From NCBI RefSeq assembly GCF_003334255.1, contig NZ_QOWU01000062.1: a stretch of 27,246 bases of DNA. One strand, written 5' to 3'. This document shows positions 1-3,000 of this stretch, in pieces. The position numbers are program-made. Origin of the DNA: Escherichia coli (GTDB lineage Bacteria; Pseudomonadota; Gammaproteobacteria; Enterobacterales; Enterobacteriaceae). How positions within the stretch are numbered: the first letter of the stretch is position 1; the number at the start of each line of letters is the position of its first letter.

Positions 1-3000
1 TACTGCTTCAGAAAGTTCAGCAAAATCCATCTGGTAAAGTTCCATCAGATAAGTCAGCACGATATTCTGGTGAACGCTGCTGCCATACTTATCCGTCAGT
101 GTGATTGATTTACCAATCAGCTCAATCACATCACCACTGGTGCCGGACTTCATCGTGAACATCAGCGCCGCCATCCGGTGATAGTGTTCAATTTCATCAT
201 CGGTAAGCGTGCTGACATCCACCAGGCTGAATGGCTTTTGCTCGCCATAAATCTCGCGTCCGTACACCGGGTCATCCAGACAATCCACCCAGTTCATCGG
301 ATACGGATATGGCCGCTTTGCACCATGATAAAACAGCACCGGGATCACTACTGGCGCACACTTATGCTCTTCAATATGCTGCTCCATCACCGCCAGAATA
401 TAACGCATCATGCGCAGTGGGATAAATTTATCCGGCGAACTCTGGTGTTCTATTAAAGTATAAATGTACCCGTCCTTCCCGTCATTTGTCTTCATGCTGA
501 GCAAAACATCGCAGGCAGACTGACGTAAACTTTCTGCCACAAACGTCGTGGATTCAAGTTCTATTGTATCAAGATTACAGCGGGATTTCTGATACGGTGT
601 CAATACCTGTTCAAGAAAGTCCCTCGCGGCTGCAGGGTCCTTCAGTGTCTTCCTGAACGCCGCATCATGTATCAGGCTGGTTTTATTAACTTTTTCACTC
701 ACGGAACCTCCGGATAAAAAAGTGGGGCATAACGCCCCATGGTTGATGTTACATGGCATGAATAATTCGTCGTTCCATGCCATACCCGAGCCCCATAAAG
801 GGAATATCATCGTCAAAGTCCATTGGTGGTGCACCATTACCCGTTGATGTTGTCTGGGGTGCACGACCAGCCTGTCCGGCCGTCTTCGGCGGCTGTCCCC
901 AGCCCCCTTGTGCAGGTGCAGAAGCACCATTACCGGCAGTGCCCTGCTGACGCAGTGAACCCAGCATCTGCATGACACCATTCACTCCCACAACAACCTC
1001 AGTTGAATAACGGTCCACACCGTTCTGCTGGTCAAACCACTTACGGGTTTTCAGCTGGCCTTCGATATAGACCTTAGAGCCCTTACGAAGATACTCTCCG
1101 GCGATTTCTGCCAGTTTTCCATAAATAACAATGCGGTGCCATTCGGTCACTTCCTTCATTTCACCGCTCTGTTTATCCTTCCAGGTATCACTGGTCGCCA
1201 GTGACAAATTCGCCACTGCACCACCACCGTTAGGAAAGTACCTGACCTCCGGCTCCTGTCCCAGATGCCCAAGCAGGATGACTTTGTTTACGCCACGTGA
1301 AGCCATACTCCCCCCTCATTGCCAGTCATAACGCTGTGTCCAGGTACCATTTTTCAGCGCCTGCTCAGCCTGATCATGTTTTTTGAAATACTCTTCAGAT
1401 TCACGGGACACCGGCCCCTCAGAACACTGAGTGCCAATATAATATCCACGCGTACTTTTGAGGATTTCCAGGGGTAATGTATAGCCAGCCGCAGCTGCAA
1501 GAATGCCGTTTTGACGGTTCATATGTGTTTCCTTAAAGTTTGCAAAAACGATAAGAAAACAGACCTCCCTGATGGTGGTCTGTTTTCATCATCAGGGAGG
1601 CTGAGGGAAATACGATCAGAAAGAGTTTTCTGCGTATTGACGTTTAGTTGTGCCATTTTGCGGTGGCAGGGACTCCGCTTTTTCAGCCTTATAGACCTGC
1701 TCCTGGCCTATTTTAATCCAGTCCACCTTGATCAGGCGGGCTTTCAGACTGACGCGCTGCTCACCGGCATGCTCTCCCTTGTTCAGGGTGAAGATATCGG
1801 TGGCCAGGTTGCTTAACGCAAAGCCAAGCAAAACCTTACGGTCCTCATCCACTGCTTTCTGGCAGCGAGAGATCAGGGTGGTTGCATCTTTACCAACAAC
1901 CGTAACATCAAAACGCGTATAGGACGGATTGTCCGTTGGTCCACTCAGTGCGTTAATCACGCAGCAAAGGAACGAGCCATTCTGATGGTTAACCTGACGC
2001 ACATTACTGAGGTACCCCAGACCTTTTACGGTCAGATTGAAGTATTCAGCTTTTGCAGAAGAAGTATTTGTTGCAGACATGATGTGTTCTCCATGGATAA
2101 AAAAAGATATGACGGAGAACACCACCGCCCCTGACGGGTGTGATAGTTCCCGTCGGGGGGCCGGAATCAGCTGTATTTCCGGCTGTCTGTGCAGTTAAAC
2201 ATACCTCGATCACCATAACTGTGGTGATATCCGTTCCCAGAGGTTAAACGGATGTACCGCCATAAAGGCATCCTCTTTCAGGCTACGAGGATATTGCAAT
2301 CACCCGAAGGCGCTTCTCTCAGATTGCTGAAACATTGGCTGGCAGTCACCCGAAGGCGCTCCTCTCAGACTGCTGGAACATTGGCTGGTCGCCGGAGCGA
2401 CATGTGATCACCCGAAGGCGTCCTTCTCAGATCACCAGGACATTGGTTGGCTGCAAGGCAGCGGTTTAGCATGCTCATTTTTAAAACACCTGAACACAAA
2501 GTCAAGAACAAAACGTCATTAAATAATTATCTCACCGAGATGTTCACTCTTTGAAATGAGCATAAAAAAGGCGCTGAATCTTCAGCGCCGTCATGGGGTT
2601 ACCAGCCCTTCGGTCATCTCACTTGTCTCCGGGGATCACTCCCGGCGCGGTTTTCACGGAGTTCATACGCCTTGCAACTCAACCGGACGCTGGCCGTTGC
2701 GGATCAGAAACAAAACAACGCCGTTGTTTAATCGCTGCTCTGTTTCCCACTGATCATGGGGGTATACATCAAAGCGTATGCACTTTAACAAATAAAAAAA
2801 AGGAAGTAATCATCATCCACGCTTTTTAATTTTTCTGCCGCCGCGTTTACTGTGTGACGTTTTCTGCTCTGAAATAACGCCTTTACACTCCGGGTAACGC
2901 TGGCAACTCCAGAACTCTCCGTTCTTACCTTTCAGCTTCCGCATTCTGCCCTGGCAAAGTGGGCATTCCGGCGTCACTGGTGCCGTAATCTGCAATTGCT

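What the first reader, a model, noticed from the sequence alone, without database searches (positions are those of the whole stretch)
1555..1600. Interleaved perfect 11-bp inverted repeats (A-B-A'-B') between the DUF3577-like gene and the small-gene/ssb pair
Seen: A (1555-1565) pairs perfectly with A' (1577-1587) and B (1564-1574) pairs perfectly with B' (1590-1600); A overlaps B and A' lies inside the B/B' loop. This is the topology of either an H-type pseudoknot or two mutually exclusive hairpins. On the minus-strand transcript the A/A' hairpin is followed by a U-rich tract, so it could be a conditional terminator controlling read-through from the topB-side operon into the 68-aa gene and ssb.
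Basis: seen in the sequence. Interest (0 to 1): 0.5.

Follow-up and report, generated by a model that had tools for sequence, protein, structure and literature searches.

The report
Bistable RNA hairpins upstream of ssb
A 46-base stretch of messenger RNA between two genes of a mobile genomic island can fold into either of two mutually exclusive hairpins; related islands keep both folds through compensating mutations, and the element most likely throttles production of the island's single-stranded-DNA-binding protein.

Summary
Two perfect 11-bp inverted repeats are interleaved at 1555-1600, and each extends to 14 nt at 93%. About 1e-4 such pairs are expected per window, and none appeared in 400 simulations.

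The element lies on the minus-strand transcript of a SPI-7-type ICE, between the STY4534/DUF3577 gene and a 68-aa gene followed by ssb. No Rfam family matches it.

In about 25 distinct relatives from E. coli, Klebsiella, Edwardsiella, Mixta, Cedecea, Serratia and metagenomes, both helices are kept with double-sided changes. One nucleotide covaries with its partner in both helices.

The arms overlap, so a true pseudoknot is excluded. The two hairpins are alternatives and are nearly iso-energetic (median difference about 2 kcal/mol).

When the GC-rich hairpin (B) forms, the pyrimidine tail pairs with the Shine-Dalgarno region of the next gene. The other hairpin (A) captures that tail. A second ICE lineage with unrelated sequence shows the same five-segment layout.

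Best reading: a cis-acting two-state RNA, terminator-like hairpin plus ribosome-site masking, that tunes p68/ssb expression. The trigger is unknown and nothing has been tested experimentally. I rate it a new member of a known kind, of moderate interest.

The parts
1616..2080 (-). Upstream gene: STY4534-family / DUF3577 'ICE replication protein' (sty). Its stop codon UGA is at 1616-1618.
   Evidence: ORF list, PGAP annotation, NCBIfam NF040584 at 198 bits, Pfam PF12101 in homologs.
1601..1615 (-). Region 0: a 15-nt pyrimidine-rich spacer between the stop codon and hairpin B. The spacing is 14-19 nt in all type-1 relatives, which I infer is just outside the reach of a terminating ribosome.
   Evidence: column 'stop->B5 dist'.
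1587..1600 (-). Region 1: 5' arm of hairpin B in the RNA (CCUCCCUGAUG, extended by AUG).
   Evidence: Helix B has 87% of cells paired in 21 distinct relatives, with UA to GC and UG changes.
1574..1587 (-). Region 2: 5' arm of hairpin A (GAAAACAGACC, extended by ACC).
   Evidence: Helix A has 86% of cells paired against 45-57% for slid controls, and 3 pairs changed on both sides.
1564..1577 (-). Region 3: 3' arm of hairpin B (CAUCAGGGAGG). Its distal half GGGAGG is also used by the extended hairpin A.
   Evidence: The A/C in GGGAGG/GGGCGG covaries with its partner in both B and A.
1553..1568 (-). It is the U/C-rich tail after B. Its core UGUUUUCUU (1553-1561) is complementary to the Shine-Dalgarno region of the 68-aa gene.
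   Evidence: MFE, RNAalifold consensus and pair counts.
1526..1534 (-). Region 5: Shine-Dalgarno region AAGGAAACA of the 68-aa gene. It pairs with 1553-1561 (helix C) whenever B is formed.
   Evidence: The computed cost to open the SD has a median of 7.9 kcal/mol in state B and 3.7 in state A.
1316..1522 (-). Downstream 68-aa gene (p68). It has no Pfam or NCBIfam match but is conserved in synteny. Start codon at 1520-1522.
749..1306 (-). ssb, starting 10 nt after the p68 stop. In some relatives the same element and ribosome site drive ssb directly, with no p68.
   Evidence: L086-L088, L214 and L007.

Best explanation
The element is a cis-acting, two-state RNA in the intercistronic region of the operon STAXI - sty(DUF3577) - p68 - ssb of a SPI-7-type integrative conjugative element.

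Five segments lie in 5'-to-3' order on the minus-strand RNA:
1. B 5' arm.
2. A 5' arm, sitting in the loop of B.
3. B 3' arm.
4. A 3' arm, which is also the U/C-rich tail and an anti-Shine-Dalgarno sequence.
5. The Shine-Dalgarno region of the next gene.

State X pairs 1 with 3 (hairpin B, GC-rich and terminator-like) and 4 with 5, so the ribosome site is masked and p68/ssb expression is low. State Y pairs 2 with 3b+4 (hairpin A). This hairpin captures the anti-SD tail, so the ribosome site is about 4 kcal/mol easier to open and expression is higher.

What is shown: both helices exist, they are mutually exclusive, they are conserved with covariation on the sense strand, and they are close in energy. 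What is inferred: B plus its tail also terminates part of the transcripts, and the balance between X and Y sets how much SSB is made relative to the upstream gene. What tips the balance is not known. Candidates are removal or occupation of segment 1, a protein such as SSB on the U-rich tail, or simply the lineage-specific energy difference.
For: Observation and chance.

Sense-strand context.

Positional conservation: nearly every one of 112 distinct sty-downstream regions starts with a GC-rich hairpin, although the stem sequences differ between lineages.

Helix A: 86.4% of cells paired against 45-57% when the partner is slid. Column pair 23/40 is AU 15, GC 4, UG 1. Pair 26/37 is UA 11, GC 4. 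The covariation score exceeds all 500 shuffles.

Helix B: 87.3% of cells paired, with pair 4/37 UA 15, GC 4. The same column 37 therefore covaries with partners in both helices.

Intermediates and repairs: L099 has CAGUCC/GGUCUG with a U-U mismatch, and L085 has CAGUCC/GGGCUG with U.G.

Natural shifts: L166 has a G-to-A change that makes A a perfect 13-bp helix and breaks B.

Energies: isolated B is -22.2, A is -17.8 and C is -10.9 kcal/mol. Across 25 variants the difference A minus B runs from -9.8 to +12.1 with a median of +2.2, and A is the MFE in four of them.

RNAalifold independently predicts B plus the tail:SD helix.

SD opening cost has a median of 7.9 kcal/mol in state B and 3.7 in state A.

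A second lineage (Erwinia, Hafnia, Prodigiosinella and others; 9 distinct sequences) has unrelated stem sequence but the same interleaved layout and an anti-SD tail, UUCCUCU against AGAGGAA. One helix-A position there shows AU, GU, UA, CG and UG.

L097 keeps the B stem with a small loop and a plain U-run, and it has lost both segment 2 and a functional ssb.

Strand test: the helix A core has 26 G.U cells against 2 A.C cells.
Against: No expression, 3'-end or structure-probing data exist for this locus.

In the window's own sequence, state X dominates strongly at equilibrium: P(A) is 5e-6 in a 121-nt context and 0.04 in a 400-nt context. B also forms first during transcription. State Y therefore needs a trigger that I could not identify.

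Helix C is almost invariant, so it is supported by conservation and by the analogous lineage but not by covariation. A family-wide test of tail:SD complementarity was not significant (permutation p = 0.44).

In state A the SD is still partly paired in constrained folds.

The double-sided changes trace to only about 3-4 independent events. Templated quasi-palindrome mutation could create such changes without selection.

The pair counts come from a register-anchored pseudo-alignment of sequences chosen because they carry the conserved anchors, which favours pairing.
Confidence: 0.5

Rival explanations
1. Classical transcription attenuator. Hairpin A (core CAGACC.CC/GG.GGUCUG followed by UUUUCUUAU) is the real intrinsic terminator. 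Hairpin B forms first and acts as its antiterminator. Read-through into p68/ssb would depend on whether B is allowed to form.
For: The A core plus UUUUCUUAU looks more like a canonical terminator than B plus UCUGUUUUC. CUGUUUUC and the following U are invariant in type-1 relatives. The two hairpins are mutually exclusive and close in energy. On growing transcripts, A and B are iso-energetic before the SD region is made.
Against: With B formed the SD is masked, so the 'read-through' state would be translationally off. No conserved leader ORF or other sensor was found: the AUG-AUG-AAA ORF in the window is absent from L088-type relatives. The type-2 lineage has the same layout but no U-tract after either hairpin. 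The terminator scan did not call either hairpin.
Confidence: 0.2
2. Ordinary terminator or mRNA-stabilising hairpin (B) at the end of the sty gene. The loop-tail complementarity (A) would be a by-product: a mosaic of two terminator variants, or templated quasi-palindrome mutation, with no switching function.
For: A hairpin at this position is universal in the family. B-only versions exist (Xenorhabdus type and L097), and so do A-only versions (Kluyvera type L093, L094, L173). State X dominates in the window sequence. The independent covariation events are few.
Against: Chance is excluded. Helix A stays paired through changes on both sides, including in the part that overlaps B. A sequence-unrelated lineage shows the same interleaving. 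Segment 2 disappears where ssb is lost (L097).
Confidence: 0.13
3. SSB autoregulatory operator of the phage T4 gene 32 type. Free island SSB binds the U-rich single-stranded tail and ribosome site next to a structured nucleation element and represses its own translation. ssDNA produced during ICE transfer or replication titrates SSB and relieves the repression. The A/B alternative would set how much of the tail is single-stranded.
For: The regulated gene is ssb, directly so in L086, L214 and L007. The tail UCUGUUUUCUUAUCGUUUUU is pyrimidine-rich and adjoins the SD. T4 gp32 autoregulation through a 5' pseudoknot and an unstructured AU-rich operator is established knowledge (my own knowledge, not tested here).
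Against: No binding data exist. The structure here is not a pseudoknot. Type-2 tails are C/U-mixed and short.
Confidence: 0.07
4. DNA-level element: hairpins or a cruciform in single-stranded ICE DNA, such as a priming or single-strand initiation site, or a single-strand promoter like those next to ssb in plasmid leading regions.
For: The ICE moves as ssDNA. Nearby genes handle DNA. The STAXI authors raised the same possibility for that motif (PMC2864571).
Against: G.U pairs far outnumber A.C pairs in the helix cores (26 against 2 for A, 7 against 2 for B). The template strand would therefore carry mismatches. The 3' arm of A doubles as an anti-SD sequence. A 46-nt element has no room for -35/-10 boxes. 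No similar sequence occurs in 72,556 plasmids.
Confidence: 0.04
5. A genuine H-type pseudoknot in which A and B coexist.
For: The interleaved order of the arms.
Against: The arms overlap by 2 nt in the perfect versions and 4-5 nt in the extended versions. The linker that would have to cross the 11-bp helix B has zero length. A version truncated to 7+7 bp gives duplex energies of only -9.0 and -4.8 kcal/mol, before any pseudoknot penalty, against -20 for B alone. Covariation falls in exactly those pairs of A that cannot coexist with B.
Confidence: 0.02

Closest known systems
Transcription attenuators and riboswitch expression platforms (alternative terminator/antiterminator hairpins, e.g. the trp leader)
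   Same: Mutually exclusive hairpins in an mRNA leader or intercistronic region. One is followed by a U-rich tract. They are placed so as to control downstream genes.
   Different: The pairing scheme is 1:3 / 2:4 / 4:5 (interleaved) rather than 1:2 / 2:3 / 3:4. No conserved leader peptide, ligand pocket or known protein site was found. The common denominator across lineages is SD masking, not a U-tract.
Translational switch of IncI-alpha/IncB plasmid replication genes (repZ/repA; Rfam PK-repZ, PK-repBA)
   Same: A hairpin loop is complementary to a sequence next to the ribosome site of the regulated gene, and that pairing decides whether the site is usable. [quoted passage not shown] The remaining details are from my own knowledge.
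   Different: In the plasmid system the loop-target pairing is a long-range pseudoknot that coexists with the hairpin, needs translation of a leader peptide, and is blocked by an antisense RNA. Here the target directly abuts the hairpin, so the two helices exclude each other. No leader peptide or antisense RNA is evident, and there is no Rfam match.
Intrinsic (Rho-independent) terminators
   Same: A GC-rich hairpin 14-19 nt after a stop codon, followed by U-rich sequence. The hairpin is positionally conserved in all relatives. Where no ssb follows, the hairpins carry plain U-runs (L048, L054, L069, L071, L079, L097).
   Different: The tail is interrupted (UCUGUUUUC). It doubles as an anti-SD sequence and as one arm of a second conserved helix. 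Downstream genes have no visible promoter of their own.
Phage T4 gene 32 translational operator (SSB autoregulation)
   Same: A structured element with interleaved complementarity lies just 5' of a pyrimidine/AU-rich stretch that includes the ribosome site of an ssb gene.
   Different: The T4 element is a true pseudoknot with proven gp32 binding. Here the helices are alternatives, and SSB binding is untested.
STAXI RNA (RF01728), and EFASI (reported downstream of STAXI)
   Same: Same operon and same ICE family. STAXI lies about 650 nt upstream, at 2251-2402 (134 bits).
   Different: Neither covariance model matches 1555-1600, even at E <= 10. There is no sequence similarity, and the STAXI-element duplex energy is not special (z = +1.9).

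Membership tests
Intrinsic terminator | Stable GC-rich stem-loop | tested here: met
   B is -20 to -22 kcal/mol and A is -17.8 kcal/mol.
Intrinsic terminator | Uninterrupted U-tract directly 3' of the stem | tested here: inconclusive
   UCUGUUUUC follows B and UUAUCGUUUUU follows A. Neither was called by the consensus scan, because of loop length or a stem mismatch. Type-2 relatives lack U-tracts.
Intrinsic terminator | Transcript 3' ends at the site | not testable with these tools
   No Term-seq or RNA-seq data are available for this ICE.
Leader-peptide attenuator (trp type) | Mutually exclusive hairpins | tested here: met
   The arms overlap, and the constrained folds exclude each other.
Leader-peptide attenuator (trp type) | Conserved short ORF whose translation selects the fold | tested here: not met
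   The AUG AUG AAA... ORF in the window is absent or out of frame in L002- and L088-type relatives. The sty stop codon lies 14-19 nt before B.
H-type pseudoknot | Both helices formed at once, with loops long enough to cross the grooves | tested here: not met
   The arms share 2-5 nt and the third loop has zero length. The truncated version is much weaker than B alone.
STAXI RNA (RF01728) | Match to the Rfam covariance model | tested here: not met
   The only STAXI match is at 2251-2402. Nothing is found at 1490-1650 at E <= 10.
EFASI / any other Rfam family | Match to an Rfam 15 model | tested here: not met
   Only chance-level hairpin hits (at most 17.7 bits, far below the gathering scores).
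IncI/IncB rep pseudoknot switch | Hairpin loop complementary to a sequence beside the regulated ribosome site | tested here: met
   Segment 2 pairs with segment 4, which overlaps the anti-SD sequence.
IncI/IncB rep pseudoknot switch | Leader-peptide translation and an antisense RNA controlling the pairing; coexistence of hairpin and loop pairing | tested here: not met
   No conserved leader ORF. No promoter-like site on the opposite strand except a weak one at 1511-1539. The helices exclude each other.
SD-sequestering translational operator | Local sequence complementary to the SD, predicted to pair with it | tested here: met
   MFE, RNAalifold consensus, and 91.9% of cells paired.
SD-sequestering translational operator | Covariation between the anti-SD and SD sequences | tested here: inconclusive
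   Five of 10 pairs never vary. The family-wide permutation test gave p = 0.44. The type-2 lineage has a different anti-SD/SD pair.
T4 gene 32-type SSB operator | Specific or cooperative binding of the cognate SSB to the leader | not testable with these tools
   Needs gel-shift or filter-binding assays.

The most novel reading that the evidence does not exclude
The interleaved five-segment layout is a dedicated ICE riboregulator, present in two sequence-unrelated versions. It couples ssb translation to the island's single-stranded-DNA status. A candidate route is SSB, or another island protein, binding the U/C-rich tail or segment 1 and flipping the RNA between the masked state (B plus anti-SD:SD) and the open state (A). 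This would be an autoregulatory circuit for conjugative-element SSBs, working through a switch geometry not described before.
Probability: 0.12. Interest if true: 0.7.

Novelty: new member of a known kind. Interest (0 to 1): 0.45.

Why it matters
SPI-7/PAPI-1/ICEclc-type islands spread virulence and resistance genes, yet little is known about how their replication and transfer genes are dosed after transcription starts. This element is a compact candidate regulator of the island's ssb that is absent from Rfam. It has comparative support for two alternative folds, and natural variants span both sides of the energy balance. That makes it directly testable with reporter fusions and structure probing. 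It also shows that the STAXI-sty-p68-ssb unit uses ribosome-site masking hairpins repeatedly. If a trigger exists, it would link ICE activation or ssDNA load to SSB supply.

Tried and rejected
- Rfam: no family at the site, at the gathering threshold or at E <= 10.
- Leader peptide: the window has AUG AUG AAA ... UAA across the element, but relatives lack it. Rejected.
- In-frame UGA UGA UGA after the sty stop codon (a read-through idea): the frame is not conserved in L088-type relatives. Not pursued.
- STAXI acting in trans on the element: the duplex energy is no better than with shuffled sequence (z = +1.9).
- Own promoter for p68/ssb inside the spacer: no minus-strand promoter-like site lies between 1523 and 2100.
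- Upstream partner for segment 1: a 6-bp pairing with AGCGGAG in the sty coding region appears in one fold. The protein consensus there is variable, so it is probably fortuitous.
- Family-wide test of whether hairpin tails match their own SD better than those of other lineages: not significant (p = 0.44). Automatic hairpin picking was unreliable.
- Automatic U-run comparison between loci with and without ssb: confounded because A-tract:U-tract pairs were counted as stem. I used only what is visible by eye.
- Automatic 'loop shuffling' screen: it worked for most type-1 and type-2 sequences but picked spurious first hairpins in others.
- Plasmid search: no match.
- Viral-contig scan: not run because the queue was full.
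- Supplement of Weinberg et al. 2017, to check the EFASI and DUF3577 motifs: not held in the library.
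Full report
OBSERVATION. The plus strand reads gaaaacagacc (1555-1565), cctccctgatg (1564-1574), ggtctgttttc (1577-1587) and catcagggagg (1590-1600). Each extends to 14 nt at 93%. The window contains five perfect 11-bp inverted repeats with short loops, against 0.25 expected. This is the only interleaved pair. About 9e-5 such pairs are expected, and none occurred in 400 Markov simulations.

CONTEXT. The window is identical to E. coli STEC2018-553. It covers the left part of a SPI-7-type integrative conjugative element. 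The genes all lie on the minus strand: parA, dnaB-PI, parB, the STY4528 replication protein, a PFL_4669-family gene, topB, the STY4534/DUF3577 gene (sty, 1616-2080), a 68-aa gene (p68, 1316-1522), ssb (749-1306) and an rpn gene. A STAXI RNA (RF01728, 134 bits) lies at 2251-2402. A canonical terminator-like site follows topB, and two promoter-like sites precede STAXI. The likely transcription unit is therefore STAXI-sty-p68-ssb, although this rests on a consensus scan only. The finding sits in the 93-nt sty-p68 spacer, and the relevant strand is the minus strand. No Rfam family matches it at any threshold. No plasmid in PLSDB carries it.

COMPARATIVE SET. I collected loci without reference to the element, in three ways:
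- 80 genomes, through an alignment of sty proteins.
- 19 loci, through exact sty homologs.
- A metagenome scan with a degenerate pattern for the last six sty codons. About 43 of its hits were true sty loci.
This gave 145 sty-downstream regions, of which 112 were distinct.

A HAIRPIN IS ALWAYS THERE. Nearly every relative has a GC-rich hairpin a few nucleotides after the sty stop codon, but the stem sequences differ completely between lineages. Where sty is the last gene, the hairpin is usually followed by a plain U-run (L048, L054, L069, L071, L079). Where p68 or ssb follows, the tail is a C/U mix.

TYPE 1, THE WINDOW'S KIND. About 25 distinct sequences share the layout CCUCCCUGA - loop with AACAGAC - UCAGGGAGG - UCUGUUUUC - AAGGAAAC - AUG. 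They come from E. coli, Klebsiella oxytoca, Edwardsiella, Mixta, Cedecea, Serratia microhaemolytica and metagenomes.

I placed them in register on invariant anchors and joined the segments into a gapless pseudo-alignment. The pair counts were as follows.
- Helix A: 86.4% of cells paired, against 45-57% when the partner is slid. Three pairs changed on both sides (AU/GC/UG, CG/UG/UA, UA/GC). The covariation score exceeded all 500 shuffles.
- Helix B: 87.3% of cells paired, with UA to GC and several UG pairs.
- One column, the A/C in GGGAGG/GGGCGG, changes together with its partner in B (U to G) and with its partner in A (U to G). Selection has therefore seen both helices.

Individual cases tell the same story.
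- L099 carries a U-U mismatch in A that L085 turns into U.G.
- In L166 a G-to-A change perfects a 13-bp helix A and breaks B.

In the helix cores G.U pairs outnumber A.C pairs, 26 to 2 in A and 7 to 2 in B. This places the structure on the sense RNA rather than the template strand or duplex DNA.

ALTERNATIVES, NOT A PSEUDOKNOT. The arms share 2-5 nucleotides, and no linker is left to cross helix B. A version truncated to 7+7 bp is far weaker than B alone. The covarying pairs of A are exactly the ones that overlap B.

ENERGIES.
- In the window, B is -22.2, A is -17.8 and the tail:SD helix C is -10.9 kcal/mol.
- B plus C gives -42.3 kcal/mol, against -33.5 with A enforced.
- Across the 25 variants, the difference A minus B runs from -9.8 to +12.1 kcal/mol, with a median near +2. 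A is the MFE in four of them.
- On a growing transcript A and B are iso-energetic until the SD region appears. After that, B plus C wins.

THE RIBOSOME SITE. The MFE and RNAalifold both pair UGUUUUCUU (1553-1561) with AAGGAAACA (1526-1534). The computed cost to open the SD has a median of 7.9 kcal/mol in state B and 3.7 in state A. Helix C is nearly invariant, so covariation says nothing about it. A family-wide test of tail:SD matching was not significant. In L086-L088, L214 and L007 the same element and ribosome site drive ssb directly, so ssb is the gene ultimately controlled.

TYPE 2. Nine distinct sequences from Erwinia, Hafnia, Prodigiosinella, Acerihabitans, Mixta mediterraneensis and metagenome-assembled genomes have unrelated stems, for example ACACACCC-AGCUGG-AACACA-CCAGC-GGGUGUGU-UCCUCUC...AAGAGGAA. 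The logic is the same. The MFE is a hairpin plus anti-SD:SD pairing. An alternative 10-11-bp hairpin, GGAACACACC/GGUGUGUUCC, uses the loop and the tail. One of its positions shows AU, GU, UA, CG and UG. These sequences have no U-tract, so masking of the ribosome site, not termination, is the shared feature.

NATURAL EXPERIMENTS. L097 keeps the B stem with a tiny loop and a clean U-run, and it has lost both segment 2 and a functional ssb. Kluyvera-type loci have only the A-like hairpin, and Xenorhabdus-type loci have only the B-like hairpin.

MECHANISM. Shown: a conserved sense-strand RNA with two mutually exclusive, near-iso-energetic hairpins, one of which shares an arm with an anti-SD sequence. 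Inferred: state X (B plus C) terminates part of the transcripts and masks the p68/ssb ribosome site. State Y (A) hides the anti-SD sequence and allows translation. Unknown: what shifts the balance. I found no leader peptide, no internal promoter, no special complementarity to STAXI and no conserved upstream partner for segment 1. Possible triggers are processing or occupation of segment 1, a protein on the U-rich tail (SSB itself would give T4 gene 32-like autoregulation), or no trigger at all, with each island simply setting its ssb output through the energy gap.

COMPARISON WITH KNOWN SYSTEMS. The element works like an attenuator or expression platform, and like SD-masking operators. Its loop-to-RBS-neighbour pairing recalls the IncI/IncB rep switches. 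It fails the defining tests of those families: no leader peptide, no antisense RNA, no coexistence of the helices and no Rfam match. It is not STAXI or EFASI.

VERDICT. This is a real, conserved and previously uncatalogued cis-regulatory RNA candidate, best filed as a new member of the known kind 'alternative-hairpin mRNA switches'.

CAVEATS. There are few independent covariation events. The alignment was anchored on conserved motifs. All energies are model predictions. No experimental data exist.

Noticed in passing
window 2087-2130 (-), and the same position in 105 distinct related loci: The ribosome site and start codon of the sty gene itself are buried in a hairpin, GGUGUUCUCCGU...AUGGAGAACAC-AUC-AUG. 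In relatives the anti-SD UUCUCC and SD GGAGAA are kept, and on average 87% of positions -14 to -5 are paired in the MFE. The sty and p68 ribosome sites resemble each other (GGAGAACACAUCAUG against GGAAACACAU(C)AUG). No Rfam match. From memory, a 'DUF3577 motif' was listed by Weinberg et al. 2017, but I could not check this.
   Followed up: partly
window 5675-5866: A 36-bp tandem repeat of 5.3 copies (86% matches), lying between the PFL_4669-family gene and the stop codon of the STY4528-family 'island replication protein' gene. It looks like an iteron array and is a candidate ICE replication origin. It also contains a perfect 11-bp inverted repeat (5811/5859).
   Followed up: no
window 2251-2402 (-): STAXI RNA (RF01728, 134 bits) with three repeat units, between topB and sty. 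About 650 other complete E. coli genomes, including many O157:H7, carry only this ~190-bp piece at 94-95% identity, with nothing annotated there.
   Followed up: partly
window 2477-2589 (-): A canonical terminator-like site, GGCGCTGAAGATTCAGCGCC followed by TTTTTT, lies right after topB. Two promoter-like sites follow it: TTCAAA/18/GATAAT with a TG, and TTGACT/17/AAAAAT. This suggests STAXI-sty-p68-ssb is a transcription unit separate from topB.
   Followed up: no
window 722-740: A bidirectional terminator-like hairpin (GTGGGGCATAACGCCCCAT) between ssb and the rpn-family gene, with a T-run on the minus strand. It probably marks the end of the ssb transcript.
   Followed up: no
window 1316-1522 (-): The 68-aa gene has no Pfam or NCBIfam match. 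It is nevertheless conserved (44-98% identity) between sty and ssb in many Enterobacterales ICEs, and is cleanly absent in others that keep the same upstream element and ribosome site.
   Followed up: partly
window 1588-1596 (-): In frame with the sty stop codon, the window reads CCC UGA UGA UGA AAA inside the 5' arm of hairpin B. The frame is not conserved in L088-type relatives.
   Followed up: partly
L010-L013, L082, L091 (Serratia/Salmonella type), first 45 nt after the sty stop: These spacers carry two copies of the hairpin's 5' arm, AACGCCC and ACGCCUCG, before a single 3' arm, CGGGGCGU. The first copy starts 2 nt after the stop codon. This may be another kind of alternative pairing, sensitive to the terminating ribosome.
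   Followed up: no
window 16841-17538 and 17555-17755: An IS1A element sits next to a truncated gspC pseudogene, just beyond parA. This is probably the junction between the ICE and the chromosomal gsp/sslE locus.
   Followed up: no
window 11186-11226 and 16707-16738: Two further perfect 11-bp inverted repeats with short loops: one inside or near the parB/DUF2786 genes, the other between parA and IS1A.
   Followed up: no
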